Assembly: GCA_963729895.1 (NCBI GenBank)
Contig: CAVSQB010000009.1
Coordinates: forward strand, 32,001-96,000
DNA length: 64,000 bases
Direction of reading: 5' to 3'
Source of the DNA: an uncultured Fibrobacterota bacterium
GTDB lineage: Bacteria; Fibrobacterota; Chitinivibrionia; Chitinivibrionales; FEN-1185
Shown: positions 15,320 to 34,555 of the stretch, in pieces
Layout of the letters: every line of letters starts with the position of its first letter
How positions within the stretch are numbered: the stretch's first letter is position 1
Notes under the pieces: generated by a model
What the model was told of the DNA's origin: nothing
The model's database searches: none
What the model saw: the letters and a program-made list of their open reading frames with translations, nothing else
Position numbers and translations under genes: made by a program

Positions 15320-15320
15320 T

Positions 15321-16235: not shown

Positions 16236-16265
16236 CCTTACTTCTCTCTTGCTGTCAATGTTACG

Positions 16266-16819: not shown

Positions 16820-19800
16820 TCATATCGTTGCGAGCATGCTCAATATCTGCTCGTTCCTGAACCCGTTCAGGTCTATGGCACCCGCTCTGCACGATGCCGC
16901 GCATGCGCCGCACCCTTTGCATAGCGCCTCGTTGACAACTGCAATGCCCTTCACCGGATCGAGCTCTACGGCGCCGTAGGCGCATACGGCCACACAGGTT
17001 CCGCACCCGCTGCACATGTCCGCCCGGATGGTTGAGATCTTTCCCTCGGACTCAATTGACTTCTTAGAAAGCACGGTGGCCGCCCTCCCTGCCGCCGCGC
17101 GCGCCTGCGCAATGGTCTCCCCGATGTCCTTGGGATAATGGGCCAGGCCGCACACAAACACGCCGTCGGTGGCGAAATCGACCGGCCGCAGCTTGACATG
17201 CGCTTCGAGAAAGAAGCCGTCGGATTCAAGCGGCACCTTAAAGAACTGGGACAGCGCCTTGTTGTCGGGATTTGCAACGATGCCCGCGCTGAGCACCAGG
17301 AGGTCGGGCTTTATCTTTACGGTCCTTCCAAGGATCGTATCGTTGACCGACACAACAAGATCGTTCCCGAGTTTCTTAACCTCAGGTTTTTTGGCTGCAT
17401 CAAACCGGATGAATAGCACGCCCTTCTCGCGCGCGAGCCGGTAATATTTCTCCCGCAAACCATAGCTTCGGATATCCCTGAACAGAAGGTAAACCGCAGT
17501 TGCGGGACTCCGCTCTTTGATCGCTATGGCGTTCTTGAGCGCGTTGGAACAGCATACGCGGCTGCAGTAGTCGCGCGTTTCATCGCGGGAGCCGACGCAT
17601 TGAATCATCACAACTGATTTCAGATTGCCGATTGCGGATTGCGAATTGTCGGCCGCGGTCTGTTCATGGTCCGATCCCGGGTATAGCATCGCTTCGAACC
17701 GGCGCTGGGTAATGATCCGTTCATCCTTGCCGTAAAGGTAGTCTGCCGGCTGAAGCTCATCGGCCCCGCTGGCGACAATCACGACTCCGTGATCGATTGG
17801 CGCACCGTTGCCTTCGAGCTCGGTGTGGAAATTACCGACATAGCCGGATACTTTCTTGATCTTCGAATTCAAGTGCGTCTTGATCTTCGGGTGATGCGTC
17901 ACGTTCTCAATCATATGGCTCAACTCGGGTCTCGTCGCTTTTCCGGAAAGCGTTGAGCGCACGTGCAGCAGGTTGCCGCCGAGCTCGCCTGTTTTCTCCA
18001 GCAGGGTGACGTTGAAATCCTGATTTGCGAGGTCGAGGGCGGCCGTCATGCCCGCAAGGCCGCCGCCGATGACCAGCGCGCCTTTGGTCACTCCCATGCT
18101 CTTTTTATACAGCGGCGCGGCAAGCTTCACTTTCGCAACGGAGGCGCGAACCAGATCGCAGGCCTTGCGCGTCGCGTTTGCGGACTCTTTCTGGTGCACC
18201 CATGCACAGTGTTCGCGGATATTGGCGAAATCAAAAAGATACGGATTAACACCGGCCTCTTCGAGCGTCTTTTGGAACAGCGGCTCATGGGTGCGCGGGG
18301 TGCACGCAGCCACCACAAGCCTGTTGAGCCTGTGCTGCTCCACTGCGGCCTTGATTGCCTTTTGTGAATCCTGCGCGCAGGAAAACATGAGCTCACCGGC
18401 GAATTTCACGCCGGGCAGGCTTTGAGCGTAGTGCACCACGGCCGGGACATCCACAACGGAGGCTATGTTGATGCCGCAACGGCACACGTACACGCCTATC
18501 CTCGGCGGCTCACCGCGCAAATCCTTCTGTCGGGGGAGATCTACCTTTATCTCCTTGACCGGCACATTGCCAAGCGTTGATGCCGCAGCCGACGCAGCGC
18601 CGCTCGCCTCGATTACCGATTCGGGAATGTCCTTGGGCCCGCTCACGCTGCCGCACACAAAGATGCCTGCACGGTTTGTGGAAACGGGTTCCATTGTGTC
18701 AACGCTCACGAAACCGGCCGCATCGATCCGGACGTTCAGGCTGCCGGCGGCGGCCATGGACGACACGGACGGTTGAATGCCGACCGACAGCACGAGCATG
18801 TCGAATTTCCGGGTGGAGACTTTTCCGTCCTGCGTGATGTAATGAATGGTGAGGTCGTTGGTGACAGGGTCGCTTTCCACGGACGCAATGCGACCGTTGA
18901 TCAGCGTGGTGTCGTGCCGGTCCCGAGCCTTGTCGATAAACCGGTCGAAACCCTTGCCGTATGCGCGTATGTCCATGTAGAAAATGGTCGTCTTCGCTTT
19001 TGGCAGGTGCTCCTGGGTGATGATCGCGTCCTTTGCAGCCTGCATGCAGCAAATTGCCGAGCAATGTTCGTTTCCGGCCGAGATGTCCCTTGAGCCAACG
19101 CACTGGAGTATGGCTATCCTTGCCGGCTCTTTCTTGTCCGACGGCCGCAGGATATGTCCGCCCGTTGGGCCGGACGCGCTCAGAAGCCGTTCGTATTCGA
19201 TGCTGGTGACCACGTTGGGAAACACGCCGTATCCGTATTCGCCCTTGAGCTTCGCGTCGAACTCGGTGGTTCCGCAGGCAAGGATCACCGATCCCACATC
19301 GACGGCCATCGCTTCTTCTTTTTGTGTAAAGTCAATGGCATTGGTGCCGCACGACTTCTGGCACAGGCGGCATGTGCCCTTCGTGAGATACAGGCATTTT
19401 GCGGCATCAATAACCGCAACCGCGGGAACAGCTTGCGGAAAAGGAATTCTTATGGCCTTGGTCTGGGACAGGCCTTTGTTATAGGGATCGGGAACCTTGA
19501 CGGGGCACTTGGTAACGCAGATACCGCATCCGGTGCATTTACTTTCGTCAACATAGCGTGGCCGCCTGCGAACTTTCACGGTGAACCTGGGCGGCTCGCC
19601 CTCGATCCCGGTGACTTCGCTGTTGGTCATGATGTGCAGGTAGGGATGACCGCCTGCCTGGACGAGTTTGGGCGAAAGGATGCACATGGCGCAGTCGTTG
19701 GTGGGAAACGTCTTGTCGAGTTGCGACATGCGCCCGCCGATGGATGGCCCGGTTTCCACCAGAAACGTTTCAATGCCCATGTCGGCAAGATCCAATGATG

Positions 19801-19849
19801 CCTGGATCCCCGCTACGCCGCCGCCGACCACCATCGCCTTTTTATGCAT
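16820..19849 (-). CDS. hdrA: Tandem (two FAD domain) HdrA-family flavoprotein
   Basis: GGGVAG and GGGLAG FAD motifs, LDKTFPTNDC, two QCVGSRD...CS..CC motifs, ACTPRTHE, FLEAHVKLRPVDF, ferredoxin motifs. Confidence 0.93.
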   Translation of the reverse strand: MHKKAMVVGGGVAGIQASLDLADMGIETFLVETGPSIGGRMSQLDKTFPTNDCAMCILSPKLVQAGGHPYLHIMTNSEVTGIEGEPPRFTVKVRRRPRYVDESKCTGCGICVTKCPVKVPDPYNKGLSQTKAIRIPFPQAVPAVAVIDAAKCLYLTKGTCRLCQKSCGTNAIDFTQKEEAMAVDVGSVILACGTTEFDAKLKGEYGYGVFPNVVTSIEYERLLSASGPTGGHILRPSDKKEPARIAILQCVGSRDISAGNEHCSAICCMQAAKDAIITQEHLPKAKTTIFYMDIRAYGKGFDRFIDKARDRHDTTLINGRIASVESDPVTNDLTIHYITQDGKVSTRKFDMLVLSVGIQPSVSSMAAAGSLNVRIDAAGFVSVDTMEPVSTNRAGIFVCGSVSGPKDIPESVIEASGAASAAASTLGNVPVKEIKVDLPRQKDLRGEPPRIGVYVCRCGINIASVVDVPAVVHYAQSLPGVKFAGELMFSCAQDSQKAIKAAVEQHRLNRLVVAACTPRTHEPLFQKTLEEAGVNPYLFDFANIREHCAWVHQKESANATRKACDLVRASVAKVKLAAPLYKKSMGVTKGALVIGGGLAGMTAALDLANQDFNVTLLEKTGELGGNLLHVRSTLSGKATRPELSHMIENVTHHPKIKTHLNSKIKKVSGYVGNFHTELEGNGAPIDHGVVIVASGADELQPADYLYGKDERIITQRRFEAMLYPGSDHEQTAADNSQSAIGNLKSVVMIQCVGSRDETRDYCSRVCCSNALKNAIAIKERSPATAVYLLFRDIRSYGLREKYYRLAREKGVLFIRFDAAKKPEVKKLGNDLVVSVNDTILGRTVKIKPDLLVLSAGIVANPDNKALSQFFKVPLESDGFFLEAHVKLRPVDFATDGVFVCGLAHYPKDIGETIAQARAAAGRAATVLSKKSIESEGKISTIRADMCSGCGTCVAVCAYGAVELDPVKGIAVVNEALCKGCGACAASCRAGAIDLNGFRNEQILSMLATI
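17614..17648 (-). repeat. Five heptamer repeats (CAATCCG-like) embedded in frame in hdrA
   Basis: Minus strand caattcg caatccg caatcgg caatctg aaatcag, translating NSQSAIGNLKS. Confidence 0.7.
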
Positions 19850-19852: not shown

Positions 19853-20320
19853 TTATTTTCCGACCTTCGCCTTGGTTTTCTTCGCAACAGGTTTTTTTCC
19901 CGCAACCGCACCCTTCACCAGTTCACGCCTCAGCGTCTGCGCCTTCTTGTCGAACTCACCCTCTTTCGCAAGCATCTCCGCCGGAGCAAACCCGTCCCGT
20001 ACGGCCATGTGCCGGAGCGCGCGCATGACATCGGTAAAATTCACCTGCTGGGGACACCGGGCATAGCACCGGTAGCACATCATGCACAGCCAGATCGCGG
20101 GCGACGCCAGAACTTCCTGACGCATGCCGTAGAGCACCTTGCGGATGATGGTCCTGCAGTTGTACTCCTCGTCGATGTTCGTGACGGGACACCCGGCCGC
20201 GCAGGTGCCGCAGGCGAAACATTTCGTGATGTTCGCCCCGCCGGGCATGAGCGCCACTTCGTCCCGGAAGGTAGGATCGAGTTCTTCTACGACTATGACC
20301 TCTGAGTTACTTTTTGTCAT
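19853..20320 (-). CDS. hdrC: HdrC-like 2x4Fe-4S subunit
   Basis: CFACGTCAAGCP and IWLCMMCYRCYARCPQ; GAGG RBS before ATG 20320. Confidence 0.9.
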   Translation of the reverse strand: MTKSNSEVIVVEELDPTFRDEVALMPGGANITKCFACGTCAAGCPVTNIDEEYNCRTIIRKVLYGMRQEVLASPAIWLCMMCYRCYARCPQQVNFTDVMRALRHMAVRDGFAPAEMLAKEGEFDKKAQTLRRELVKGAVAGKKPVAKKTKAKVGK

Positions 20321-20359
20321 GATCAATCCACCTCTTGTATTTCTCAGAATTCCGCTTTT

Positions 20360-20431
20360 CAATCTTCAATCGACAATTCTTCCAGGGATTTTCACTCAAT
20401 CCGCAATCTACAATCTAAAATCTGCAATTCT
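20360..20431 (+). repeat. Intergenic heptamer tandem repeats (3 + 5 units)
   Basis: caatctt caatcga caattct ... caatccg caatcta caatcta aaatctg caattct. Confidence 0.75.
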
Positions 20432-20432: not shown

Positions 20433-21125
20433 CTACGCCTTCGGCCCCATCCCTGCAATGCACTGATCTTCGCGCACCACTTTCCGTGCACCGCCGTCAT
20501 TTGACGTGGACCAGTCCTGCGGAACTGCGAGCGACTCAAGCATCGAAACTTTGTTCAGCGCCTTTGCCCGATCGTAGATGAGCTGCCACGCGCAATCCGT
20601 TTGGTCGCTCACTTCGCATTTACCGTTTCTGGAACTGCCGCACGGGCCGTTCAACTGCCGTTTGGAGCAACGGGTGATGGGACAAATTCCAAAGTACTGG
20701 CCCAGCCGGCAATTGCCGCAGCCCGCGCACTTCTCGGCCCACACTCCTTGCGATTCAAGAATTCCCATGAACTGCGTGTTGAGGCCGGGATACACTGCGG
20801 TTTTGGGAAACCGTTCGGCAAGCGCCTGGACCCCTGCACCGCAGCCGAGCGACAGGACCGCGTCGTAGTCGCCGACCCGCTGGCTCAACACGTCGATGAA
20901 CGCGTCTTCGCACTGGCGTTCGATGGTACACTCATGCACCACCACGCTTTCGCGTCCGGCAAGCTTGAGCGACATACGCAGCGCGGAACCTATGATGCCG
21001 GTCTCGCGCTCGCCTCCGGCAAGACATACGGTGACGCAGGTGCCGCAGCCCACAACGAGCACGCGCTTGTAGTCCTTTACCATGTCGCGAATTTCCGGAA
21101 TCTTCTTACGGTCGGCAACGATCAT
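20433..21125 (-). CDS. metV: MetV (methylene-THF reductase small Fe-S/Zn subunit)
   Basis: VGCGTCVTVC, RQCE, LGCGAGVQ, CAGCGNC...ICPITRCSK..LNGPCG...CEV...CAW. Confidence 0.9.
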   Translation of the reverse strand: MIVADRKKIPEIRDMVKDYKRVLVVGCGTCVTVCLAGGERETGIIGSALRMSLKLAGRESVVVHECTIERQCEDAFIDVLSQRVGDYDAVLSLGCGAGVQALAERFPKTAVYPGLNTQFMGILESQGVWAEKCAGCGNCRLGQYFGICPITRCSKRQLNGPCGSSRNGKCEVSDQTDCAWQLIYDRAKALNKVSMLESLAVPQDWSTSNDGGARKVVREDQCIAGMGPKA

Positions 21126-21604
21126 CTGTTTCCTCCTTGAACGGCCTGTTCGGCCTGGGCCGCCATCTCGGCGATACCGCTTTCCAAATGCGTTTCACTC
21201 CTGTGCAGTGGACTTACGCCGAGCGGCGCAATGCGCGCATTCATTTCCTTTACGATCTCCGCAAACCGCGGACCTTCGGCGGACGAGAGGTTAAACATCT
21301 CCAGGCGCTCGGGCTCGATTCCGATTTCAGCAAGGATCTGCTTTACACGCTGGACCCGTTTCCTGGCCCGCAAATTTCCTTCGAGGAAATGGCACCCGCC
21401 CTCAAGGCAGCCCGCCACCAAGACTCCGTCCACGCCTTTTTCAAACGCGGCAAGAAGGTAATTCTCCTCGATCTTCCCGGTGCACGGGAACCGCAGCACG
21501 CGCACGTTTGAAGGATACTGCAGGCGCATGGATCCCGCCATGTCGGCCGCGGCATACGCGCAGTAGTGGCAGCAGAAGGCCAGGATCACGGGTTGTCGGG
21601 TCAT
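21122..21604 (-). CDS. mvhD: MvhD-like 2Fe-2S subunit
   Basis: FCCHYCAYAAAD, FPCTGK, GCLEGGCHF, NLSSAEG. Confidence 0.9.
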   Translation of the reverse strand: MTRQPVILAFCCHYCAYAAADMAGSMRLQYPSNVRVLRFPCTGKIEENYLLAAFEKGVDGVLVAGCLEGGCHFLEGNLRARKRVQRVKQILAEIGIEPERLEMFNLSSAEGPRFAEIVKEMNARIAPLGVSPLHRSETHLESGIAEMAAQAEQAVQGGNR

Positions 21605-21634
21605 TTTCGTATTTGTCCTGTCAAAAGAAAACTC

Positions 21635-21761: not shown

Positions 21762-21774
21762 ATCTTATGTCTTT

Positions 21775-24700
21775 CTATTTCTTCCATCTGGGCTGTGCCA
21801 CGCCAACCTGTTCCAGATACATAGTCTCCGCGGGCTTCTCTTCAAACGACCCGGCAAGCAGGCTGTTTATAGCGCCGAGTATCTGCACATCGAGATAATG
21901 GTGCAGCGTGATCGCCTTTGCGGGACACGACGATGTGCAGCTTCCGCAGCCCATGCACACCGCGCCCTGAACTTCCGCCTTGTTGTCCTTGCCGATCTGC
22001 GGCGCCAGGTACGGACACACATGCACGCAGGTCATGCACGCGATGCACTTGGCCGGGTCCACCCAGGCGGTCTGCGCGCCCACGGGCATTACTTTACGCG
22101 AGAGAATCGACGCGGATCTCGCCGCAACCGCGTTTGCCTGCGCTATGGTCTCACTGATGAATTTGGGCGCATGCGCCGTGCCGCACAGGAAGAGTCCTTC
22201 GCTGGCGAAATCCACCGGCCGCAGCTTGACATGCGCTTCCAGGAAAAATCCGTCGGCGTTGAGCGGAACGCGCAGCAGATCCGACAGTTCCTGACGGTCG
22301 TCGCGCGCAACGATAGGCGCGGCAAGCACGAGAAGATCGGGCGTCATGATGAGTTCGCGTCCGAGAATCTTGTCCGTGACGCGCACCGTGAGCCCGGCAT
22401 CCGTGCTCACGTCCGGAAGGCGCTTGTCGTCGTACCGGATGAACATGATCCCTTTTTCGCGCGCCTCGCGGTACGCAGCTTCCCGGAACCCGTAAGTGCG
22501 CATTTCGCGATACAGCACGAGGATTTTCGCCTTGAGATAGCGCTTGCGCAGAAGGAGCGCGTTTTTGACCGCCGTCGTGCAGCATACCCTGCTGCAGTAC
22601 GGGCGCTCGTCGTTTCGCTGCTCAACGCACTGTATCATCACAATCGTGGACTTGTCCGGCAAAGCAAGCTCATTTCTCGCGATGCGGCCGGACAGTTCGA
22701 GCTGCGTAATGACCTTGTCGATTTTCCCGTAACCGAACGATTTCGGTTTGAGTTCTCGTGCGCCGCTCGCAAGGATCACAACCCCGTGTTCCACCTTGAG
22801 CGTCGCTTCCGGCGTAACAATGTCCGAGGTGAAATCACCCACGTGGCCGTCGACTTTCTTAACCGTGGAATGCAGATACACTTTGATACGCGGATGGGAT
22901 GCCACCCGTTCGATCAGGCTCGACACAAACGCCGACACGTCGCTCTTGTCAAGAGTCTCGTGAATGTCCCGCGCCATGCCGCCCAGGATATTTTCCTTTT
23001 CCACAAGGTGCACCTGGTATCCCTGGTCTGCAATGGAAAGCCCTGCGGTCATGCCGCCGACGCCTCCGCCGATAATGAGCGCGGCGTTCTTTACGGGCAC
23101 CGTTGATTCCACCAGCGGAAGAAGTCCCACGGTGCGGCCCACGGTCATGCGAACCAAATCTTTGGCCTTCTCGGTTGCCTTTTCAGGTTCGGCGGAATGC
23201 ACCCACGAGCATTGGTCGCGGATGTTCGCCATTTCAAGCAGGTACGGATTGAGCCCGGCATCGCGGAGCGTATCGCGGAAGATGGCCTCATGCGTGCGCG
23301 GCGTGCACGATGCCACGATCACGCGGTTGAGACGATGCTTGATGATTTTGTCCTTGATCTGGTTCTGGGTGTCGTCTGCGCATGTGTAAACGTTGCGTTC
23401 CGCAAGCACGACATACGGCAGTTTTCTGGTACGCTGCACCACCGCTTCCACGTCCACCACCGAGGCGATGTTGCTGCCGCAATGGCAGATAAACACGCCC
23501 ACGCGCGGCGGTTCGTCGGTAACGTCGCGCTCCGGCGGATAGATTTTCGTCTTTACACGCGTTCCGCGGGCCGGTGCAAGCAGCGCCATGGCCTTGGCGG
23601 CAACGGCCGATGCCTGCATCACGGTATCGGGAATGTCCTTGGGCTCGCTCAGCGCGCCGCCGACAAACACCCCGGGCCGCGATGTTTCCAAAGGAGAAAG
23701 CTCGCCGGTCCCTACAAATCCCCACCGGTTCACCATCACGTTGAACCGTTCGATCTGTTCCTTGAGGCTTGCGCTGGGTTCAAGACCAAGCGACAGCACG
23801 ACCAGATCGTGTTCCGCCGTGATGCAGCGGTTGTCCTCGCCCATATATGTTATCTTTAGATTTTTGGTGTCGTTGACCTGTTCAACAGACGAGGGACGGC
23901 ACCGGACGTACGAAACGCCCATTTCTTTTGCGCGGTTGTAATACCGGTCGAAATCCTTGCCGTAGGCACGTATATCCATATAATAAACGGTGACCGCGGT
24001 GTCGGGCTCGTGCTGTTTTGCGAGAATGGCTTCCTTGGTCGCGGCCATGCAGCACACCGATGAGCAGTAATCGTTGCACATTTTGGAATCGCGCGATCCC
24101 ACGCACTGAATAAACGCGAGGCTCTTGGGGGTAGTGTTATCGGAAGGCCGGCGCACGTGGCCCTGTGTTGGACCGGCGGCCGAAAGCAACCGCTCAAACT
24201 GGGTATTGGCGATGACGTTGGCGTCGAAACCCGAACCGTATTCGATGCGCCGCATCGGGTCAAATGCGGAAAATCCGGGCGTGAGCAATACTGCGCCCAC
24301 GTCAAGCTCCCGGACCGTTTCTTCCTGCTCGTAGTCGATTGCGCCCGCGCCGCACACTTTTGCACACAGCCCGCACTCGCCCGTTGTGAGGTGCACGCAG
24401 GTTTTGCGGTCTATCGCGGGAACGCGGGGCACTGCCTGCGGATGCGCCATGTCGATATTCGGACGCGCTTCGAGATATTGATTATACGCCGTGTAATGTT
24501 TTTTTGCGGCAATCGTCGCAACGTGCGTATGGTCCGACGCCCCCGTGGGGCACACAAAATCGCATGCTCCGCACACCTGGCACTGCTCGCTTTTTTCATC
24601 GTACGCTGGCAGCACTTCCCGTTTTGCCCCGCGGCCGAACATGCTGATTGCACCCCTGCCCATGAGATCACCGCACACCTTGACGCACAAACCGCACAGG

Positions 24701-25095
24701 ATGCATTCGCCATCGGGCTTTTTCTCAAACGGCGTGGATGTCACGCCGAGAGATGCGGCGAATTCCGCGAGTTTCTTCGATTTCGGCGCTTCGGCAAGAA
24801 GCAGCTCAAGAATGATCTTCCGGTTCTCCCTGACACCGGCCGTGTCGGTTCTTACCGTCATGCCGTTTTCCACGGGGTAGTTGCATGACGAAACCTGTTT
24901 GGGCCCGCGGGGAGTTTCCAGTTCCACAATGCAAACCCGGCACGCGCCGATTGGTTCCATGCCCCGGTAATTGCAAAGCGTTGGTATGGAAATTCCCATC
25001 TGCCGCGCCGTATCCAGGATGGTTGTGCCAGGGGATACCTCGGATGTGCGTCCGTCAATGGTGATGCCGATCTTGTCTGGAGCTGATGTTTCCAT
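21775..25095 (-). CDS. Fusion: NuoG/HydA N-terminal Fe-S module + C-terminal bulk of a tandem HdrA
   Basis: IPTLC...GACRVC 2Fe-2S, CILCGLC and CQVCGAC, then HdrA sequence from YNQYL..PQAVP onward; the first FAD GxGxxG motif is missing and is found in 26836-27744. Confidence 0.9.
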   Translation of the reverse strand: METSAPDKIGITIDGRTSEVSPGTTILDTARQMGISIPTLCNYRGMEPIGACRVCIVELETPRGPKQVSSCNYPVENGMTVRTDTAGVRENRKIILELLLAEAPKSKKLAEFAASLGVTSTPFEKKPDGECILCGLCVKVCGDLMGRGAISMFGRGAKREVLPAYDEKSEQCQVCGACDFVCPTGASDHTHVATIAAKKHYTAYNQYLEARPNIDMAHPQAVPRVPAIDRKTCVHLTTGECGLCAKVCGAGAIDYEQEETVRELDVGAVLLTPGFSAFDPMRRIEYGSGFDANVIANTQFERLLSAAGPTQGHVRRPSDNTTPKSLAFIQCVGSRDSKMCNDYCSSVCCMAATKEAILAKQHEPDTAVTVYYMDIRAYGKDFDRYYNRAKEMGVSYVRCRPSSVEQVNDTKNLKITYMGEDNRCITAEHDLVVLSLGLEPSASLKEQIERFNVMVNRWGFVGTGELSPLETSRPGVFVGGALSEPKDIPDTVMQASAVAAKAMALLAPARGTRVKTKIYPPERDVTDEPPRVGVFICHCGSNIASVVDVEAVVQRTRKLPYVVLAERNVYTCADDTQNQIKDKIIKHRLNRVIVASCTPRTHEAIFRDTLRDAGLNPYLLEMANIRDQCSWVHSAEPEKATEKAKDLVRMTVGRTVGLLPLVESTVPVKNAALIIGGGVGGMTAGLSIADQGYQVHLVEKENILGGMARDIHETLDKSDVSAFVSSLIERVASHPRIKVYLHSTVKKVDGHVGDFTSDIVTPEATLKVEHGVVILASGARELKPKSFGYGKIDKVITQLELSGRIARNELALPDKSTIVMIQCVEQRNDERPYCSRVCCTTAVKNALLLRKRYLKAKILVLYREMRTYGFREAAYREAREKGIMFIRYDDKRLPDVSTDAGLTVRVTDKILGRELIMTPDLLVLAAPIVARDDRQELSDLLRVPLNADGFFLEAHVKLRPVDFASEGLFLCGTAHAPKFISETIAQANAVAARSASILSRKVMPVGAQTAWVDPAKCIACMTCVHVCPYLAPQIGKDNKAEVQGAVCMGCGSCTSSCPAKAITLHHYLDVQILGAINSLLAGSFEEKPAETMYLEQVGVAQPRWKK

Positions 25096-25096
25096 G

Positions 25097-26839
25097 TTAT
25101 GCTTTTTTCATTTCGCACACGCCGGCCGGACATTTCCGTCCCGCGATGTGCATGTCGAGATCGTCCCGGAAATGGAGCAGCGCGTTTGTCACCGGACCGG
25201 ACGCGGTGGTGCCGAGCCCGCACACGCTTGCGGCGTTCATTGCCCTGCTGAGCCGCTCGAGCTGTTCGATGGTTTCGGCATTACCCTTTCCCTCGCAGAT
25301 CCTATTCAACATGCCGTACATCTGCCTGGTGCCTTCCCGGCACGGCGTACACCTGCCGCACGACTCGTCCACAAAGAACCCGAGCAAGAATCGCGTCATG
25401 TCAACCACGCAGGAATCGGAGTCCATCACGATGATGCCGCCGGTCCCCATATTGGCGGACTTTCCCGGCACGTCCTGCGAGTCTATTGCCAGGTCGAGCA
25501 TGGACGGCGGCACGCAGCCGATTGACGGCCCGCCCACCTGCACTGCCTTGCATGCCTTATCTCCGCGGATGCCGCCTCCCATTCCGTAAATCATGTCACG
25601 CAGGGTGATCCCGAACGGCACTTCCACCAGTCCGGAAGTTTTTACCGACCCTTCGAGGGAGAAAATCGTCGTGCCGGTCGTCGTCTTCGATCCGATGGAG
25701 GCGTACCACTGCGATCCCCTGGTAATAATCGGCGCAACGCTTGCCCAGGTCTTGACATTGTTCACAACCGTCGGCTTGCCCCAGAGACCCGCGGTCACGG
25801 GAAACGGCGGCCTGCCGCGCGGCTCGCCGGAATGGCCTTCAATGGATTCGATGAGCCCGGTCTCCTCGCCGCACACGTATGCGCCCGCGCCGCGGCGCAC
25901 GCTCAGGCGGAAACTCCAGCCTGAACCGAAAATATCGTCGCCGAGTATCCCATGCTTTTCCGCTTCCGCAATTGCGTGTTCAAGCGTGGTGATGGCGAGA
26001 GGGTATTCGCTGCGGACATAGACATATCCCTGCCTCGCGCCTATCGCGTAGGATCCGATGATCATGCCCTCGATAATCGCGTGCGGGTCGCCTTCGATCA
26101 CGCTGCGGTCCATGGAGGATCCGGGTGCGCCCTCGTCCGCATTGCACACGACATATTTCACATCGCCTTTCGCGTTCCGCGCGAACCGCCATTTCTGGCC
26201 GGTGGGGAAATACGCGCCGCCCCGCCCGCGCAGGCCCGAGGCCGTGATCTCGTCGAGCACGTTCTCAGGTTTCATCGACGAAAGCGCCTTCTGCGCTCCC
26301 CGGTATGCTCCGCGTGCGATGGATTCTTCTATAGACATCGGATCAATGGAACCGCAGTTCCGCATGATCACTTTTTTCTGGTGCCGGAAGAAATCGAGCT
26401 TTGACCATTCCGGAATTCCCTCTGCCGCCGGGCTCGAACCGTAACAATGGACGTCACCGGTGGACACATGCTCTTCAGAGGAGAACCTGCCGAGCGGCTT
26501 TTCGCCGCCGAAATTGCCTTTTGTGAAATATGCCGTGAGCACGGAACGGGTTTTCCGGGCCGTCATGCCGCCGAAGCTCACACGCGGGCCGCCCGGCATA
26601 ACGATGTCGAGCAGGGGCTCCTGGCTGCAGAAACCGATGCAGCCGGTGCGCGACACGGTGGCGTCGGCCTTACATTTCTTTACAGTTGCAAGCGCCGCCT
26701 CCTCCACTTTGCGCGCACCCATGGCAAGCCCGCAGGTGCCGGACCCGATGAGGATCTTCAGCTTCTTCGGATACAGCGAGGCGCTGCCGAGAGCCGCAAG
26801 CCTGTCGAGATCGACCATGGTTTTCACCGCAGTGCTCAT
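25097..26839 (-). CDS. NuoF/HydB-like NADH/FMN-binding subunit
   Basis: GLRGRGGAYFPTG, CNADEG, GAGAYVCGEET, ESCGRCTPCREG...CGLG, CPAGVC; N-terminal thioredoxin-like Cys domain. Confidence 0.92.
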   Translation of the reverse strand: MSTAVKTMVDLDRLAALGSASLYPKKLKILIGSGTCGLAMGARKVEEAALATVKKCKADATVSRTGCIGFCSQEPLLDIVMPGGPRVSFGGMTARKTRSVLTAYFTKGNFGGEKPLGRFSSEEHVSTGDVHCYGSSPAAEGIPEWSKLDFFRHQKKVIMRNCGSIDPMSIEESIARGAYRGAQKALSSMKPENVLDEITASGLRGRGGAYFPTGQKWRFARNAKGDVKYVVCNADEGAPGSSMDRSVIEGDPHAIIEGMIIGSYAIGARQGYVYVRSEYPLAITTLEHAIAEAEKHGILGDDIFGSGWSFRLSVRRGAGAYVCGEETGLIESIEGHSGEPRGRPPFPVTAGLWGKPTVVNNVKTWASVAPIITRGSQWYASIGSKTTTGTTIFSLEGSVKTSGLVEVPFGITLRDMIYGMGGGIRGDKACKAVQVGGPSIGCVPPSMLDLAIDSQDVPGKSANMGTGGIIVMDSDSCVVDMTRFLLGFFVDESCGRCTPCREGTRQMYGMLNRICEGKGNAETIEQLERLSRAMNAASVCGLGTTASGPVTNALLHFRDDLDMHIAGRKCPAGVCEMKKA

Positions 26840-27744
26840 GAGAATTGTTCCAGTATCGCGTCCATATCTTCGGGATCAACCTTGCCGAAGCTCACGTCGT
26901 CGATGCGCATGGACGGCGACAAGGCGCACAGGCCCAGGCAGCGCACGGTACGCAAGGTAAAGCGTCCGGTCGTGTCGGTTCCGCCGTCGCTCACGCCGAG
27001 TTTCTTTTCGAGAAGAGAGAGCAACGCGCCGGAATGCTGCGAGTGGCAGCTTGTGCCGCTGCATACCTGGATAACGTGGCGCCCGGCCGGCTCGAACCTC
27101 ATCTTGTCGTAAAAACTCGCCACCTTGAGGGCGCTCGCCAGCGGAATGGCGAGCCGCGACGCAGCGTGTTCCACAATGGGGCGCGGCAGAAAGCCGTAGG
27201 TCCTGTTGGTTGCCTCGAGCACGGGCATCAGCGCGCCCGCATCACCCTGGTGCTTTGCAATGATATCCGTCAGAAATGCCTCATCTTTTTTGTCAAGTTT
27301 GGCGGCGGGCTTTGGTTCCGTCACGGTCCTTGGAATGTTTCGCACCGGGCATCGCTCTATGCAGTCGCCGCAGCCGGTGCATTTGTCCTGGTCAACGAAG
27401 CGCGGCCTGGTTCTCACGGTTGCCTTGAAATTCCCAGCCTCGCCCTCGAGTTTCACCACCTCGGACATGGTAATCACGTCGATGTTCAGGTCGCGCATGC
27501 AGGCGACAACCTTCGGTGAAATGATGCATGTGGCGCAGTCGCCCGTGGGAAATGTCTTGTCGAGCCGCGCCATGTTTCCTCCGATGGTGGCGCTCTCCTC
27601 AACAAGATACACGTAGAACCCTGCTGCGGAAAGATCCAACGATGCCTGAATGCCCGCGATCCCGCCGCCGCATACAAGCACGGCGCCTACAGGCTCTTTC
27701 TTGGCTTTAGCCGGGACCGGTTCCTTAAGAGTTTCCGCGATCAT
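26836..27744 (-). CDS. Fusion: HdrA N-terminal FAD-binding fragment + NuoE/HydC-like 2Fe-2S domain
   Basis: GGGIAG, LDKTFPTGDC, RPRFVD..KCTGCGDCIERCPV, then ALMPVL...VASFY...VCSGTSCH...RCLGLCALSP. Confidence 0.9.
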   Translation of the reverse strand: MIAETLKEPVPAKAKKEPVGAVLVCGGGIAGIQASLDLSAAGFYVYLVEESATIGGNMARLDKTFPTGDCATCIISPKVVACMRDLNIDVITMSEVVKLEGEAGNFKATVRTRPRFVDQDKCTGCGDCIERCPVRNIPRTVTEPKPAAKLDKKDEAFLTDIIAKHQGDAGALMPVLEATNRTYGFLPRPIVEHAASRLAIPLASALKVASFYDKMRFEPAGRHVIQVCSGTSCHSQHSGALLSLLEKKLGVSDGGTDTTGRFTLRTVRCLGLCALSPSMRIDDVSFGKVDPEDMDAILEQFS

Positions 27745-27786
27745 GACGTTTTGTCCCTTTTTGTTCCGTCAAAAGAAATGCAAGAC

Positions 27787-27905: not shown

Positions 27906-27980
27906 ATCTCCTCTTCCGAACGATCAATTTCCAGGATCTTTCCCTTCACCGGTAAAAGCCTAACGTACTCTCCGGTACTT

Positions 27981-28020: not shown

Positions 28021-30648
28021 TCATTCTTCCGTCTCTTCCCCGGCCGTCTTGCTCTTCGGCATCACCTTGCGATAGACCGCACCCGGCTTTTTCACAACAC
28101 CGCCGACCGTGAGAAGATCCCGCTCTATTTGAATATCAAACAGCCGCTCGTTTTCCTGCAGATACGGCAGTAGAAGCTTCCAGTCCTCATTCGTGAAGCG
28201 CCCGAACATGCCGCCGTTGAGCTGTTCGTTCACGAGGGTACGCTGAGGGTCGCGCAGGTAAATCGCCCCGCCCGAGGCCAGCGACAGCAGGTTGCTGCCC
28301 GGGTACGGGAGGTCGAGTCCAACAATGTCTCCGTTGTCTTCAACGCGAAGCCCATTGACAATTGCAAATCCGCCGCCCGCCAGCGGGTCGCCGGCCATGA
28401 ACGATTCCGCGAGAAAGTCCAGCGCGGTGCCATTGATCACCACCTTCGGCTTTCCCACGGCGTTGATCATAGGCCTGCCGGCCGCGTTACCCATCACGTA
28501 GATCTCTCCGCCCTTTGCGCCGTACAGGAATGTCTGGCCGACGTCTCCGTACACCACCACTTTCCCGCGCTTGGAAATCTGGCACAACTGGTCCTGCGCG
28601 TTTCCATGAACATAGGCCTCGAGCCCGTCGATGCCGGAGCCCAGATAGTCGCCCGGATTGTCGTAACAGTCGACTCGAAGTCCGTCTGTTGCGGGGCCAA
28701 AGCCCGCGGCGTGAAATCGCGTGCCGCGGGAATTGTAATGCACGATATGCCGCCATCCGAGCTTGTATGCATCAACGGCAAGGTGCGCATCGCAATCGTC
28801 GCCCTCGGCCTGGAAACCCGTTGCATCAATAAGAAGCGTTGTCTCACCTTCGTGCGGGCCGCGGAGGGATTGCCGTGTGTCAAACGTAATGCGGCGGCAC
28901 GCGCTTGCGGCTTCCCGGCCGATGCCGGGCTGCACCGAAAAGATTGTTTCCAATCCGCTTCGAAGCGCCGCAACCACCGAACTGCGTTTTTTGTCGCCCG
29001 TGGGATACCGGCGGTCGATTGCCAAGGTGAGCGCCTGGATGCCGAACGCCGGTTCGTCTTTCGCACAGCTTGCTGCAACCTGCTCCGCGCACCAGCGCAG
29101 CCGGTTGTAATCCATGGCACGGATGTTTTCGCGCAGGTACTCGAACATCATCTGCGGATTGTTGTCCTGCAGGGCCTGCGATATCGCCGCAGCATCGGCA
29201 TCTTTACTTGAAGGAACCGTCACCGGAATCGAAAAATCGCAATGCGCCTGTCCGGGCCGCGTTCCCACCTGCTGGCCGAATTTGTTGGTAACGTTCAGGG
29301 TGTAGTCCGGCGAGGTTCCGTTGTGCCCGTTGCCCGACGGGACAACGTTCAGCAGGAAAGCGCCTCCGTCCGTCGAACTGCCGCCGCGCGCGTTCCAGTA
29401 CATGTCGGCAATGGGCGAAAACCGCGAATCCTCGCGCGCCAGACTCGCCAGCGTTGCGTCGATGGCCTGCTTCTCGGAACAGATGAGCCCGATGGAGACT
29501 TTGCCTTCCTGAAGCGCAAACACCTGAGGACGCAGCATGGCCGTGTCGGTGATGCCGAGCAATTGAAATCCCATTTTATCAAGATTGCGCGCGATGATGA
29601 AAAACCACGGGCCGTCGGGCGACGCATGGATCTGCGCGGCCTGGATTTCTTTGTATACTCGCTGTTTTTCCACGGGCAGCCGGTCGAAATCGAGCTCGGT
29701 GGTGGGCGCGAGCGATTCTATGATGTATTCCACCGGATACTTGTACACGCGGTTCATGAGGTCGAACAGCATGATGGACGCTTCGGTGTCGGTCAGGAAC
29801 TGCGGGAACAGGTTGCGCTGCGCGAGATATTCGCACACCGAAAGGTAATTTGCGAAGTCGCCGTTGTGGACGAGCGCCTCGTTCATGCCGATAAACGGGT
29901 GGCAGCCGCCCGGATGCCACACGCGGCCGCGCGTGGGGTACCGCTGGTGCGCGATCCACACGTGCGCTCGCGAGTCTTCCATGCGGTAATACTGGACCAC
30001 GGCTTCGGCGTATCCCACCACCTTGAGAATAATCAGATTGCGCGCATGCGAAAGCACGAATGCGCGCTTCTCGCCGAGTGACGCGTAGAATCGGTTGTTG
30101 AGCTTGCTGGAATTCTGGAACACGAACTCGTCTTCGATCTCACGCGGCTCAAGGCCGGTCAGTTTCTTCTCGTCTGCAAACTTTGCGAGCGCATCCTGTT
30201 TTGCGCGGACAAAGTAGCGCGCCACGTCGGGCGGCTTCACCTGCAACAGCGGTACGTCGCGATAATCGCTCACCGTGGGAATGATGCCGCCCTGGTCTAT
30301 GGTGAAAAACGGCTCGATGCATTCCTTCTCAACCTCGCCTTTAGCACCGGCATCGAGGAGCGCGACCTGCAGGCAGTAATCCTCTTCGAGCACCGACCTC
30401 GACACGCCAAAATCCTCGGGCACGAGCCCGCAGGCGGCAATACCGCCGCCTTTGCCGTTGCCGCGGTTGCGCATCTGGATGCTCGGCTCGTAAATGTGCT
30501 TCCCGCGCACCGGGATGGTACAGGCGAAACCGGTAACGCCGCATCCGCCTTCGGCTTCCTGAGGTTTGCCGATCCATTCGCCGGAAGGCCGGAGGCCGTC
30601 GCGGCTGCGGATGAGGGCTTCCGCCCGGTCAAGAGACGAAACCGTCAT
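28021..30648 (-). CDS. Glutamate synthase GATase-II domain fused to GXGXG beta-helix domain (GltB1-GltB3 type), no FMN domain
   Basis: Propeptide then EGG/CGV Ntn nucleophile, AHQRYPT, HNGD, TDTE, DGPW, LRPQ; C-terminal GDYLG, GNAQD, GAKGG, ESFMAG, ASGGAIY. Confidence 0.88.
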   Translation of the reverse strand: MTVSSLDRAEALIRSRDGLRPSGEWIGKPQEAEGGCGVTGFACTIPVRGKHIYEPSIQMRNRGNGKGGGIAACGLVPEDFGVSRSVLEEDYCLQVALLDAGAKGEVEKECIEPFFTIDQGGIIPTVSDYRDVPLLQVKPPDVARYFVRAKQDALAKFADEKKLTGLEPREIEDEFVFQNSSKLNNRFYASLGEKRAFVLSHARNLIILKVVGYAEAVVQYYRMEDSRAHVWIAHQRYPTRGRVWHPGGCHPFIGMNEALVHNGDFANYLSVCEYLAQRNLFPQFLTDTEASIMLFDLMNRVYKYPVEYIIESLAPTTELDFDRLPVEKQRVYKEIQAAQIHASPDGPWFFIIARNLDKMGFQLLGITDTAMLRPQVFALQEGKVSIGLICSEKQAIDATLASLAREDSRFSPIADMYWNARGGSSTDGGAFLLNVVPSGNGHNGTSPDYTLNVTNKFGQQVGTRPGQAHCDFSIPVTVPSSKDADAAAISQALQDNNPQMMFEYLRENIRAMDYNRLRWCAEQVAASCAKDEPAFGIQALTLAIDRRYPTGDKKRSSVVAALRSGLETIFSVQPGIGREAASACRRITFDTRQSLRGPHEGETTLLIDATGFQAEGDDCDAHLAVDAYKLGWRHIVHYNSRGTRFHAAGFGPATDGLRVDCYDNPGDYLGSGIDGLEAYVHGNAQDQLCQISKRGKVVVYGDVGQTFLYGAKGGEIYVMGNAAGRPMINAVGKPKVVINGTALDFLAESFMAGDPLAGGGFAIVNGLRVEDNGDIVGLDLPYPGSNLLSLASGGAIYLRDPQRTLVNEQLNGGMFGRFTNEDWKLLLPYLQENERLFDIQIERDLLTVGGVVKKPGAVYRKVMPKSKTAGEETEE

Positions 30649-32207: not shown

Positions 32208-32222
32208 GATTGGTGTTCGTCC

Positions 32223-34544: not shown

Positions 34545-34555
34545 GGTAAACCTTC

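What the first reader, a model, noticed from the sequence alone, without database searches (positions are those of the whole stretch)
21775..27744. HdrA cut in two by an inserted NuoE-NuoF-NuoG NADH module, giving two reciprocal fusion proteins
Seen: the intact paralog at 16820-19849 reads ...KCTGCGICVTKCPVKVPDP-YNKGLSQTKAIRIPFPQAVP... In this locus the part up to KCTGCGDCIERCPV is the N-terminus of 26836-27744 and continues in frame into a NuoE/HydC domain. The part from YNQYLEARPNIDMAHPQAVP onward follows a NuoG/HydA-type Fe-S module in 21775-25095, with nuoF between them. The genes are tightly coupled (ATGA overlap, 1-bp gap) and both junctions are in frame, so this looks like an evolved arrangement rather than damage. 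Known: HdrL proteins carry a GltD-like insert in HdrA, and the Bam complex has HdrA and NuoEFG homologues as separate chains. Inference: a three-gene diaphorase was grafted into the HdrA ferredoxin loop, so the first FAD domain must be assembled in trans and NADH is wired directly to a bifurcating flavin. I do not recall this architecture being described.
Basis: partly seen in the sequence, partly recalled or inferred. Interest (0 to 1): 0.88.

Follow-up and report, generated by a model that had tools for sequence, protein, structure and literature searches.

The report
Split HdrA flavoprotein wrapping an NADH module
One electron-splitting flavoprotein (HdrA) is encoded in two complementary pieces, each fused to a subunit of an NADH-oxidising module, a design conserved in many anaerobes that here sits in the folate-reductase gene cluster of the carbon-fixation pathway.

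Summary
Three tightly coupled minus-strand genes encode HdrA-N::NuoE (27744-26836), NuoF (26839-25097) and NuoG-N::HdrA-C (25095-21775). Against the intact paralog, the two HdrA pieces are contiguous to within 3 residues.

The cut lies inside HdrA's inserted ferredoxin domain, between its two cysteine motifs. This is not damage. The same three-gene module occurs in 6 of 40 related genomes and, by record title, in Planctomycetota, Acidobacteriota, Eubacteriales, Spirochaetes, Desulfobacterota, Myxococcales and Archaea. All cofactor cysteines are invariant.

A complex model rebuilds the FAD domain in trans (score 0.87, best control 0.00). That pass may only reflect likeness to solved HdrA.

New here:
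- The cut is the same site where HdrL-type proteins carry a GltD/NfnB-like insert.
- The closest HdrA bodies are HdrL forms in the same operon context.
- Split forms are not one clade (AU p = 7e-6).
- This clade's NuoF lacks the ferredoxin-binding C-terminal domain.

The scan found this split before in at least 8 other genomes. I found no paper describing it, but a key review was not readable.

The parts
26836..27744 (-). HdrA-N::NuoE fusion (P0001, 302 aa). The HdrA part is about residues 17-137 (DNA 27334-27696): GxGxxG FAD motif, DCxxC pair (C70, C73), and the first CxxCxxCxxxCP motif (C122-C132). The NuoE-type [2Fe-2S] domain is residues 159-301 (DNA 26842-27270).
   Evidence: In the 35-sequence alignment, G26/G28/G31, C70, C73, C122/C125/C128/C132 and C228/C233/C269/C273 are invariant.
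25097..26839 (-). NuoF/HydB-type NADH-FMN subunit (P0002, 580 aa). It has an N-terminal thioredoxin-like domain but no C-terminal 2x[4Fe-4S] domain. Its start overlaps the upstream stop (ATGA).
   Evidence: The C-terminal eight Cys are absent in 7 of 18 aligned NuoFs (the window clade plus two Planctomycetota).
21775..25095 (-). NuoG-N::HdrA-C fusion (P0003, 1106 aa):
- [2Fe-2S] plus 2x[4Fe-4S] NuoG/HydA N-terminal module, residues 8-186 (DNA 24538-25074).
- Second half of HdrA unit 1, from the linker and second Cys motif on, residues about 203-515 (DNA 23551-24489).
- HdrA N-domain, second HdrA unit lacking the Cys pair, and C-terminal ferredoxin domain, residues 528-1079 (DNA 21859-23514).
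   Evidence: In the 18-sequence alignment these are invariant: C41/C52/C55/C71, C131-C141, C172-C182, C233/C241/C244/C248, C331/C344/C348/C349 and K354.
21122..21604 (-). MvhD-type [2Fe-2S] adaptor. It overlaps metV by 4 bp.
   Evidence: Pfam FlpD, E 3e-50. An MvhD gene follows the module in 10 of 10 outside loci with DNA beyond it.
20433..21125 (-). MetV (MTHFR C-terminal-like Fe-S subunit). It is the only copy in the genome.
33627..34649 (-). MetF (methylene-THF reductase), the only copy in the genome. The true start is probably the ATG at residue 35. It is preceded by a third MvhD-like ORF at 34556-34975.
28021..33620 (-). Three glutamate-synthase-like genes: 465 aa; Fer4 plus FMN domain, 520 aa; amidotransferase-like plus GXGXG, 875 aa. 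They lie between metF and the split module.
   Evidence: Synteny is conserved in relatives and with HdrL forms.
19853..20362 (-). HdrC-like dicluster protein.
   Evidence: NCBIfam TIGR03290, E 3.5e-26, below its cut-off.
16820..19849 (-). Intact double-HdrA paralog (P0004, 1009 aa), used as the reference for the cut.
13467..16718 (-). MvhD, two Fe-S proteins and an FAD/NAD(P)-binding protein. By my recollection of the Flx family this set resembles FlxDCBA. It lies downstream of the intact HdrA.
   Evidence: the ShyB/AsrA-like and ShyC/AsrB-like matches are below their cut-offs.

Best explanation
This is a genuine, conserved three-gene module. It encodes one HdrA-type (heterodisulfide-reductase A) bifurcating flavoprotein as two complementary polypeptides. 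The first piece is fused to the front of a NuoE/HydC-like subunit. The second piece is fused behind a NuoG/HydA-N-terminal-like Fe-S subunit. A NuoF/HydB-like NADH-FMN subunit is encoded between them.

When the three proteins assemble, the two HdrA pieces rebuild the FAD-binding thioredoxin-reductase-like domain. They also rebuild the inserted 2x[4Fe-4S] ferredoxin domain. One Cys motif comes from each chain, so by the usual ferredoxin ligation pattern each cluster would be held by both chains (inferred).

The Fe-S chain of the NAD(H) module is thereby hard-wired to HdrA's inserted-ferredoxin arm. This is the arm that carries the low-potential electron in the solved HdrA-type complexes. NAD(H), via the FMN of NuoF, therefore occupies the position that free ferredoxin has in methanogen Hdr, and that the GltD/NfnB-like insert has in HdrL.

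In this genome the module lies with MvhD-MetV and with the only MetF. It therefore most likely links the methylene-/methyl-tetrahydrofolate step of the Wood-Ljungdahl pathway to NAD(H) by flavin-based bifurcation or confurcation.

Shown: gene structure, conservation, cofactor motifs, insertion site, gene context. Inferred: assembly, the electron path, the direction of the reaction and the third redox partner. The third partner is unidentified, and the genome has no HdrB/CCG protein.
For: Structure and contiguity of the pieces.

Conservation:
- All 120 listed 90%-identity clusters are fusion-length proteins of 61-92% identity, and all but one cover at least 88% of the query.
- At least 8 clusters at 50% identity match across both halves.
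- Full-length fusions occur in G003, G004, G005, G007 and G033, and at 40% identity in G027, i.e. 6 of 40 relatives. The whole gene order is conserved in the first five.
- 18 genome-contig loci from bacteria and archaea match both halves. NuoF is next in 18 of 18. NuoG-N::HdrA-C is downstream in 15 of 15 loci with enough DNA.
- All cofactor Cys, the GxGxxG motif and K354 are invariant.

Assembly model:
- Score 0.87, best of 3 controls 0.00. That mark was reached by 116 of 157 solved complexes and 2 of 215 mismatched pairs.
- The runs agree in at least 84% of contacts, and the partner's pLDDT is at least 80.
- I used my own alignments with ligands riding along, so the calibration counts hold only roughly.
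- Strand pairing: P0003 264-270 with P0001 21-25 and 106-109, and P0003 252-255 with P0001 116-122.

Same site as the HdrL inserts: of 111 HdrA-like proteins that passed the score filters, 59 were uninterrupted, 45 had an insert of about 480-670 aa, 5 of about 320-350 aa, and 2 of 194-281 aa. All inserts lie between the same two motifs. The large inserts are Fer4_20 plus Pyr_redox_2, i.e. GltD/NfnB-like.

Arm assignment: the inserted ferredoxin domain is the low-potential exit in PMC9012536 (passages) and in the Bam preprint 10.64898/2026.04.10.717634 (section 7).

MTHFR link: there is one MetF and one MetV in G000, ACS is present, and mvhD overlaps metV. PMC8515935 notes NuoEFG homologues upstream of metFV as a possible new MTHFR type (passage).
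Against: - No biochemical or structural data exist for any member.
- The complex model is of two halves of a fold with solved structures, so its pass may show only likeness.
- With NAD(H) at -320 mV on the 'low' arm and methylene-THF at -200 mV, no ordinary third partner is evident. The simplest thermodynamic scheme (NADH as mid-potential donor, ferredoxin low, MetFV high) would need the opposite wiring.
- A covalent link to the inserted domain does not prove that the NuoG-N clusters pass electrons through it. In Bam the homologous subunit contacts the C-terminal ferredoxin domain.
- The 277-bp gap before the module and the glutamate-synthase-like genes between metF and the module leave open which proteins belong to one complex.
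- In other lineages the module is followed by Flx-like genes rather than MetV, so the MTHFR role is local, not general.
- G002 (same genus, 99% complete) has no fusion.
Confidence: 0.6

Rival explanations
1. NADH is the mid-potential donor. Electrons run NuoF -> NuoG-N -> rebuilt ferredoxin domain -> bifurcating FAD. One electron then goes to MetV/MetF (methylene-THF) and the other to ferredoxin: 2 NADH + CH2-THF + Fd(ox) -> 2 NAD+ + CH3-THF + Fd(red).
For: - Of NAD(H), ferredoxin and methylene-THF, only NADH lies between the other two in potential (established potentials, recalled).
- This is the reaction long proposed for the Moorella MetFV-HdrABC-MvhD enzyme, whose NADH site is said to be on HdrA (passages in PMC8515935, and PMC6295475).
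- The window-clade NuoF has lost the ferredoxin-binding C-terminal domain, as expected for a plain NADH input.
Against: - It requires one-electron entry through the arm that is the low-potential exit in both solved HdrA-type systems.
- The canonical entry adaptor MvhD is still conserved next to the module.
Confidence: 0.3
2. A two-stage bifurcating machine, as proposed for Bam-Bfu. The NuoEF part is itself a HydBC-type (Bfu) bifurcating unit exchanging electrons with both NAD(H) and ferredoxin, coupled in series to the HdrA flavin.
For: - The best PDB relatives of all three Nuo-like parts are bifurcating HydABC/NiFe-Bfu/NfnABC chains rather than complex I.
- 11 of 18 aligned NuoFs of split or unsplit modules carry the C-terminal 2x[4Fe-4S] domain.
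- The Bam structure shows this coupling is possible.
Against: In the window's own clade (7 of 18 aligned) the C-terminal ferredoxin-like domain, named as the ferredoxin site in the Bam preprint, is missing. This reading therefore fits relatives better than this locus.
Confidence: 0.12
3. The module mainly powers the adjacent glutamate-synthase-like enzyme (with or without MetFV). The conserved gene order would then map onto the three arms of HdrA. GltB-like and HdrC-like would be the high-potential arm, the NAD(P)H module the inserted-ferredoxin arm, and MvhD-MetV-MetF the entry arm.
For: - The order GltB-like x3, HdrC-like, HdrA carrying a NAD(P)H module, MvhD, MetV recurs with both split (L017) and HdrL forms (L035, L036, L037, L040).
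- The genome has no CCG-domain (HdrB/HdrD) protein, so HdrC-like must hand electrons to something else (genome 96.7% complete).
- Earlier scan notes describe the same operon type.
Against: - In the window, HdrC-like sits next to the second, intact HdrA, not next to the split one.
- A 277-bp gap separates the GltB-like genes from the module.
- Stoichiometric coupling of glutamate synthesis to C1 flux is physiologically odd.
- Nothing here tests an interaction.
Confidence: 0.2
4. Artefact or decay: a mis-assembly, or a broken hdrA whose pieces are no longer used.
For: None beyond the unusual layout.
Against: - The same junctions occur in independent assemblies from many phyla, with intact frames and invariant cofactor residues.
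- Public-run contigs bridge all four junctions.
Confidence: 0.02

Closest known systems
Class II benzoyl-CoA reductase Bam[(BC)2DEFGHI]2 ('Bam-Bfu') of Geobacter metallireducens (PMC9304861 passages; bioRxiv 10.64898/2026.04.10.717634, abstract and sections 6-7 read)
   Same: The parts list matches: a fused double HdrA in which only the first unit has bifurcating-flavin features (BamE), an MvhD-like adaptor (BamF), and NuoE/NuoF/NuoG-N-like BamG/H/I.
   Different: - In Bam all are separate chains and HdrA is uncut.
- BamI feeds the C-terminal ferredoxin domain and BamF, while the inserted ferredoxin domain is the low-potential exit to BamBC.
- Here the NuoG-N and NuoE homologues are covalently joined to the two halves of that inserted domain.
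- There is no tungsten enzyme or BamD in the locus.
- This clade's NuoF lacks the ferredoxin-binding domain.
HdrL / HdrA with NfnB- or GltD-like insertion (Desulfobacterium autotrophicum, PMC2702500 passages; ANME-1 HdrA9-11, PMC9012536 passages)
   Same: A NAD(P)H-binding module interrupts HdrA at the same place, between the two Cys motifs of the inserted ferredoxin domain. The window's HdrA body is closest to such proteins, and they sit in the same operon context.
   Different: The insert in HdrL is one GltD/NfnB-like domain within one polypeptide. Here the 'insert' is three subunits of a different family and the polypeptide is broken twice. The split forms keep the 'PQAVP' linker segment, which the HdrL forms do not match.
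MetFV-HdrABC-MvhD methylene-THF reductase of Moorella thermoacetica (Mock et al. 2014, known to me only through passages in PMC8515935, PMC6295475, PMC5736913)
   Same: MetF, MetV, MvhD, HdrA-type and HdrC-type genes lie together in an organism with acetyl-CoA synthase, and NAD(H) is linked through HdrA.
   Different: No HdrB exists anywhere in the genome. HdrA is split and carries NuoEFG. Glutamate-synthase-like genes are interleaved. PMC8515935 mentions 'NuoEFG homolog' genes upstream of metFV as a possible 'X type' MTHFR but does not mention any HdrA pieces.
Unsplit relatives found here (L072 Acidobacteria, L054, L061 Desulfosarcina, by record title)
   Same: A double HdrA, MvhD, NuoE, NuoF and NuoG-N lie in one locus. 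Their NuoFs branch just outside the split-type NuoFs.
   Different: HdrA is uncut, and NuoE (150-167 aa) and NuoG-N (224 aa in L054) are free-standing.

Membership tests
HdrA-type bifurcating flavoprotein | Thioredoxin-reductase-like FAD domain with an N-terminal GxGxxG motif | tested here: met
   The motif is on P0001 (G26, G28, G31 invariant). The rest of the domain is on P0003. The model rebuilds the sheet across the chains.
HdrA-type bifurcating flavoprotein | Cys pair (DCxxC) and a lysine near the flavin, named as bifurcating-FAD features in the Bam preprint | tested here: inconclusive
   C70/C73 are invariant on P0001 and K354 is invariant on P0003. Equating K354 with BamE Lys280 rests on my reading of motif position, not on a structural alignment. 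Unit 2 lacks the Cys pair (alignment).
HdrA-type bifurcating flavoprotein | Inserted 2x[4Fe-4S] ferredoxin domain and a [4Fe-4S] cluster in the reductase domain | tested here: met
   Motif 1 (C122-C132) is on P0001. Motif 2 (C233, C241, C244, C248) and C331/C344/C348/C349 are on P0003. All are invariant.
HdrA-type bifurcating flavoprotein | One polypeptide | tested here: not met
   There are two polypeptides, with the cut between P0004-equivalent residues 118 and 122.
Bfu / HydBC-type bifurcating NADH-ferredoxin module (PMC9304861; Bam preprint) | HydB-type subunit with an N-terminal thioredoxin-like [2Fe-2S] domain and an FMN/NADH core | tested here: met
   Pfam Complex1_51K and NADH_4Fe-4S. 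The N-terminal domain has conserved C36, C67 and C71. The best PDB hits are NfnB 9n5u_B, 9bov_B and 7t2r_B.
Bfu / HydBC-type bifurcating NADH-ferredoxin module (PMC9304861; Bam preprint) | C-terminal 2x[4Fe-4S] ferredoxin-like domain on the HydB-type subunit (the ferredoxin site) | tested here: not met
   P0002 ends 5 residues after the last conserved core Cys, C575. The eight Cys columns are absent in the window clade and in L017 and L024, and present in the other 11 of 18.
Bfu / HydBC-type bifurcating NADH-ferredoxin module (PMC9304861; Bam preprint) | HydC/NuoE-like [2Fe-2S] subunit, and a BfuA with [2Fe-2S] plus two [4Fe-4S] clusters but without the His-ligated cluster ('type 2') | tested here: met
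   P0001 residues 159-301. P0003 has Fer2_4 and one dicluster domain and no NADH-G_4Fe-4S_3 hit, unlike the hydrogenase HydA at 508-2349.
HdrL (HdrA with GltD/NfnB-like insert) | GltD/NfnB-like Fer4_20 plus Pyr_redox_2 domain inside HdrA | tested here: not met
   None of the three proteins has a Fer4_20 or GltD-like hit. The insertion site itself is shared.
MetFV-HdrABC-MvhD type methylene-THF reductase | MetF, MetV, MvhD, HdrA and HdrC encoded together | tested here: met
   The HdrC-like match is below the NCBIfam cut-off.
MetFV-HdrABC-MvhD type methylene-THF reductase | HdrB (CCG-domain) subunit | tested here: not met
   PF02754 was not found in G000 (96.7% complete). The control rang in 12 of 14 genomes.
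MetFV-HdrABC-MvhD type methylene-THF reductase | NADH-dependent activity of a purified complex | not testable with these tools
   Needs biochemistry.
Class II benzoyl-CoA reductase (Bam) | Tungsten AOR-type BamB with BamC and BamD in the cluster | tested here: not met
   No such genes lie between 13467 and 34975. The rest of the genome was not searched for BamB.

The most novel reading that the evidence does not exclude
The loop between the two Cys motifs of HdrA's inserted ferredoxin domain is a recurrent cassette site. Whole NAD(P)H modules have been exchanged there: a GltD/NfnB-like domain, extra ferredoxin repeats, or a three-subunit NuoEFG/Bfu unit that breaks the protein in two. The HdrA body and its operon stay in place during these exchanges.

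The split enzymes would form Fe-S clusters shared between two polypeptides. They would place NAD(H), and in most lineages a second HydBC-type bifurcating site, on HdrA's low-potential arm. That gives a hard-wired series of two bifurcation devices, wired differently from Bam.

In this organism the machine would be the missing NAD(H)-coupled, energy-coupled methylene-THF reductase. Its third partner would be neither a heterodisulfide nor free ferredoxin.
Probability: 0.35. Interest if true: 0.85.

Novelty: new variant of a known kind. Interest (0 to 1): 0.72.

Why it matters
HdrA-type and HydBC-type modules are two of the few known devices for flavin-based electron bifurcation. How they are wired into pathways decides the energy yield of acetogens, syntrophs and sulfate reducers.

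A conserved, cross-phylum design that fuses the two devices at HdrA's low-potential arm offers a natural experiment on that wiring. It also offers a defined candidate for the unresolved electron partners of Hdr-type methylene-THF reductases.

Genome annotations call these genes plain 'NuoE' and 'NuoG'. As a result, 'orphan NuoEFG' clusters reported in anaerobes (PMC4046663, PMC8515935, PMC13343851 supplement) may hide HdrA halves. That would change metabolic reconstructions.

Tried and rejected
- Promoter and terminator scan of 19800-28200: counts no higher than in shuffles (3 vs 3.2; 10 vs 9.7), so uninformative.
- PDB sequence search with MetV: no match, so no solved MetFV-Hdr complex could guide the wiring.
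- Appel et al. 2021 (BBA 1862:148379), the main review of HdrA modules, is not held. It may describe this architecture. The supplementary tables of PMC9304861 (Bfu clades) were not opened.
- Literature searches that found no description of a split HdrA fused to NuoE/NuoG. Passages were read in PMC9304861, PMC4046663, PMC7325909, PMC9012536, PMC2702500, PMC5947623, PMC11237513, PMC8515935, PMC6295475, PMC5736913, PMC13343851 (plus its supplement), PMC12142623, PMC6037941 and PMC10327494.
- Sequencing runs: no RNA holder listed, so nothing can be said on expression.
- Low-depth contigs left parts of the stretch uncovered in each run. One contig of X3 skips 25891-26215 at 90% likeness. I take it as another organism's NuoF, not as a variant of this locus.
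- dsrA: no match over the cut-off, so I dropped a sulfate-reducer reading.
- A single-origin 'graft' was considered and rejected on the trees.
- NuoF monophyly of split forms was not settled. Only 2 outgroups from G000 and 3 unsplit relatives were available, and the hydrogenase-linked NuoF of G000 nests among the split-type NuoFs.
- L032 at first looked like an exception with no third gene. Its contig ends after accessory DRTGG/CBS-kinase/PHP genes, which also separate NuoF from the third gene in L029.

Full report
**Observation**

On the minus strand, three ORFs lie at 27744-26836 (P0001, 302 aa), 26839-25097 (P0002, 580 aa) and 25095-21775 (P0003, 1106 aa). The DNA shows the ATGA overlap and the TAA-C-ATG junction.

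Pfam gives the following:
- P0001: an FAD Rossmann start, one 4Fe-4S motif and a NuoE-type [2Fe-2S] domain.
- P0002: the NuoF FMN and 4Fe-4S domains.
- P0003: a [2Fe-2S] domain and one dicluster domain, followed by HdrA-type domains.

I compared the pieces with the intact 1009-aa paralog at 19849-16820 (P0004). P0001 23-135 aligns to P0004 6-118 (55% identity, E 4e-39). P0003 aligns from the linker 'YNQYLEARPNIDMAHPQAVP' (P0004 122-141) to the end (44% over 931 columns). The two pieces are thus complementary to within three residues.

Against the solved HdrA 5ODC, P0001 covers residues 145-261 and P0003 resumes at about 246. By the published domain limits as I recall them (237-315), this places the cut inside the inserted ferredoxin domain, between its two Cys motifs.

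**It is real and conserved**

- The word-indexed protein search listed 120 clusters of fusion-length proteins at 61-92% identity. Their precomputed Pfam hits include a NuoE domain together with FAD or Fer4 domains.
- The exhaustive search found at least eight 50%-identity representatives that match across both halves at 39-63% identity. Four of them carry an extra HdrA N-terminal domain.
- Among 40 relatives, full-length fusions occur in G003, G004, G005 (same genus), G007 (same family) and G033 (another family), and at 40% identity in G027. G002 (same genus, 99% complete) has none.
- In five relatives the whole order is kept: metF, three glutamate-synthase-like genes, the split module, mvhD, metV, hdrC-like, intact hdrA, mvhD, Fe-S genes. 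G004 shows some frameshifted ORFs.
- The genome-contig scan returned 18 loci matching both halves. By record title they come from Planctomycetota, Acidobacteriota, Eubacteriales, Spirochaetes, Desulfobacterota, Myxococcales, Cloacimonadota, Thermoplasmata and an uncultured archaeon.
- NuoF is the next gene (directly, or after a 127-aa thioredoxin-like ORF) in 18 of 18 of these loci. A NuoG-N::HdrA-C gene follows in 15 of 15 with enough DNA. An mvhD follows in 10 of 10 with DNA beyond it.
- Two size classes exist: about 1085-1108 aa (double HdrA, as here) and about 592 aa (single HdrA; L025, L030, L034). In the short class, the NuoE fusion carries the HdrA N-domain.
- In alignments of 35 and 18 sequences, every cofactor ligand is invariant.
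- Contigs of four public runs from one study, which may be the source, bridge all four junctions without differences.

**Assembly**

I submitted P0001 1-150 and P0003 190-520, with FAD and three clusters riding along.
- The complex model scored 0.87 (three runs: 0.87, 0.87, 0.88) against a best control of 0.00.
- That mark was reached by 116 of 157 solved complexes and by 2 of 215 mismatched pairs.
- The runs agree in at least 84% of contacts, and the partner's pLDDT is at least 80.
- I used my own alignments and ligands, so these calibration counts hold only roughly.
- The tightest contacts pair P0003 264-270 with the first Rossmann strand of P0001 (21-25), and P0003 252-255 with P0001 116-122 beside motif 1.

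This is what a rebuilt HdrA domain would look like. HdrA structures are solved, however, so the pass shows likeness and not proof of binding.

**The cut site is a known insertion site**

This is not a random sample.
- Of 111 proteins that passed the score filters, 59 are uninterrupted.
- 45 carry an insert of about 480-670 aa, 5 an insert of about 320-350 aa, and 2 an insert of 194-281 aa. All lie between the same two motifs.
- The large inserts are Fer4_20 plus Pyr_redox_2, i.e. GltD/NfnB-like. The medium ones are truncated versions. The small ones are extra ferredoxin repeats.

This is the HdrL architecture of Desulfobacterium autotrophicum (PMC2702500, passages). [quoted passage not shown]

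Loci L035, L036, L037 and L040 (Phycisphaerales, Chloroflexi, Pirellulales, Dehalococcoidia by title) have the window's context: glutamate-synthase-like genes, hdrC-like, mvhD, metV. In place of the three genes they have one HdrL-type protein. L044 has the hdrC-like to metF part of that context.

**History**

I built a tree of the HdrA-C part with 80 rows:
- all 18 split forms;
- 31 uninterrupted forms (P0004 plus 30 drawn at random after leaving out its six orthologues);
- 24 of the 45 HdrL forms, drawn at random;
- all 7 forms with other inserts.

The split label needs 8 changes on this tree, and at least 5 are forced by well-supported branches. None of 200 bootstrap trees makes the split forms one clade. 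An AU test rejects one clade (p = 6.8e-6).

The window clade (7 rows, including Planctomycetota L017) sits with HdrL rows P0138, P0151, L037 and L040 (91/98). L030 pairs with HdrL P0273 (100/100). The short N-part tree gives the same nearest non-split neighbours for the window clade, for L026-L028 and for L030. The two halves of each split HdrA therefore share one history.

Three loci (L072, L054, L061) have an uncut double HdrA, MvhD and free-standing NuoE, NuoF and NuoG-N. Their NuoFs branch just outside the split-type NuoFs. The NuoF of G000's own [FeFe]-hydrogenase nests inside the split-type NuoFs (there are few outgroups and one lies on a long branch). L030's NuoF groups near the window clade while its HdrA body does not.

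Together this points to exchange of NAD(P)H cassettes at one site rather than a single graft. The direction of the exchanges is not resolved.

**Mechanism**

Two sources read here assign the inserted ferredoxin domain to the low-potential exit of the bifurcating FAD.
- One is the description of the methanogen enzyme in PMC9012536.
- The other is the cryo-EM study of the Bam complex (bioRxiv 10.64898/2026.04.10.717634, section 7).
- In Bam, BamI passes electrons to the C-terminal ferredoxin domain and the MvhD-like BamF. Only the first HdrA unit has a bifurcating flavin.

The window proteins keep that pattern. The Cys pair is on P0001, the invariant K354 is on P0003, and the second unit has no Cys pair.

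The Nuo-like module, however, is covalently tied to both halves of the inserted domain. I therefore read NAD(H) as sitting on that arm.

The window-clade NuoF also lacks the C-terminal 2x[4Fe-4S] domain that the Bam preprint names as the ferredoxin site. A second, HydBC-type bifurcation is thus unlikely here, although it is likely in most relatives.

**Role in this organism**

G000 (96.7% complete) has the following:
- one MetF and one MetV, both in this cluster, and only these two HdrA loci;
- an acetyl-CoA synthase domain;
- no dsrA over the cut-off;
- no CCG-domain protein.

The cluster is therefore the organism's methylene-THF reductase locus, and it lacks the usual HdrB acceptor site. Which couple sits on which arm cannot be decided from sequence. 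The role of the glutamate-synthase-like proteins is equally open. The rival schemes are listed separately with their tests.

**Prior knowledge**

Seven full-text searches, and passages of 14 papers from those searches, gave no description of HdrA halves fused to NuoE and NuoG.

Three papers list 'NuoEFG' next to hdrA, mvhD or metFV without noting it: PMC4046663, PMC8515935 ('X type' MTHFR) and PMC13343851 (main text and supplement). The 2021 review of HdrA modules could not be read.

This scan has noted the same split in at least 8 other genomes, and the glutamate-synthase/MetFV/Hdr operon in 3. One of those notes led me to the Bam preprint. These are unchecked notes and I do not count them as support.

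**Verdict**

The feature is real and conserved, and as far as I could search it is undescribed. It is best filed as a new variant of HdrA enzymes with an NAD(P)H module in the ferredoxin loop. It uses the parts of Bam-Bfu but a different connection.

Noticed in passing
window 508-2349 (+), with G000:C9:28967-32730 just upstream of the window: An [FeFe]-hydrogenase HydA (613 aa) is preceded by a NuoE-like gene and a 1093-aa reading frame that matches NuoF. Its C-terminal tail resembles those of the NuoF::GltD-like fusions of L020, L022 and L030 (Pfam was run on L020 only). Its NuoF part nests among the split-module NuoFs in the tree.
   Followed up: partly
window 7832-10578 (-): HydF-like GTPase and a radical-SAM/BATS protein, which are [FeFe]-hydrogenase maturases. 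A Lyase_1 family gene lies at 10582-11985.
   Followed up: no
window 28021-33620 (-): Three glutamate-synthase-like genes are interleaved between metF and the Hdr module. The 875-aa protein combines an amidotransferase-like stretch with a GXGXG domain. The set is conserved with both split and HdrL forms in other phyla. Earlier scan notes describe the same operon type.
   Followed up: partly
window 34556-34975 (-): A third MvhD-like ORF (139 aa) lies directly upstream of metF. The metF ORF as called (TTG start) probably begins at its internal ATG (residue 35). The same mvhD-metF pair is seen in G004 and G007.
   Followed up: partly
window 13467-20362 (-): A second Hdr system: HdrC-like, an intact double HdrA, MvhD, two Fe-S proteins and an FAD/NAD(P)-binding AsrB/HydG-like protein. 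By recollection it resembles Flx-Hdr. In archaeal and other loci (L019, L025, L034) the same Flx-like genes follow the split module instead of metV.
   Followed up: partly
whole genome G000: No CCG-domain (HdrB/HdrD) protein was found in a 96.7%-complete genome that has two HdrA systems.
   Followed up: yes
L020 7398-10911, L022 7394-10888, L030 7426-10596: In these split modules NuoF is a protein of 1022-1056 aa. In L020 (the only one scanned with Pfam) the extra C-terminal part is a GltD/NfnB-like domain, so both kinds of NAD(P)H module are present. The C-terminal tails of L022 and L030 look alike. In L020 and L022 the N-terminal thioredoxin-like domain is a separate 127-aa protein.
   Followed up: partly
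L029 9905-12459 and L032 3061-5793: DRTGG, CBS-histidine-kinase-like ATPase and PHP-domain genes sit between nuoF and the NuoG-N::HdrA-C gene. By recollection this set accompanies some bifurcating hydrogenase operons.
   Followed up: partly
L024 (Pirellulales MAG) and L016 (G004): The module's genes are broken into several overlapping ORFs in these assemblies. These look like frameshifts, possibly assembly errors.
   Followed up: no
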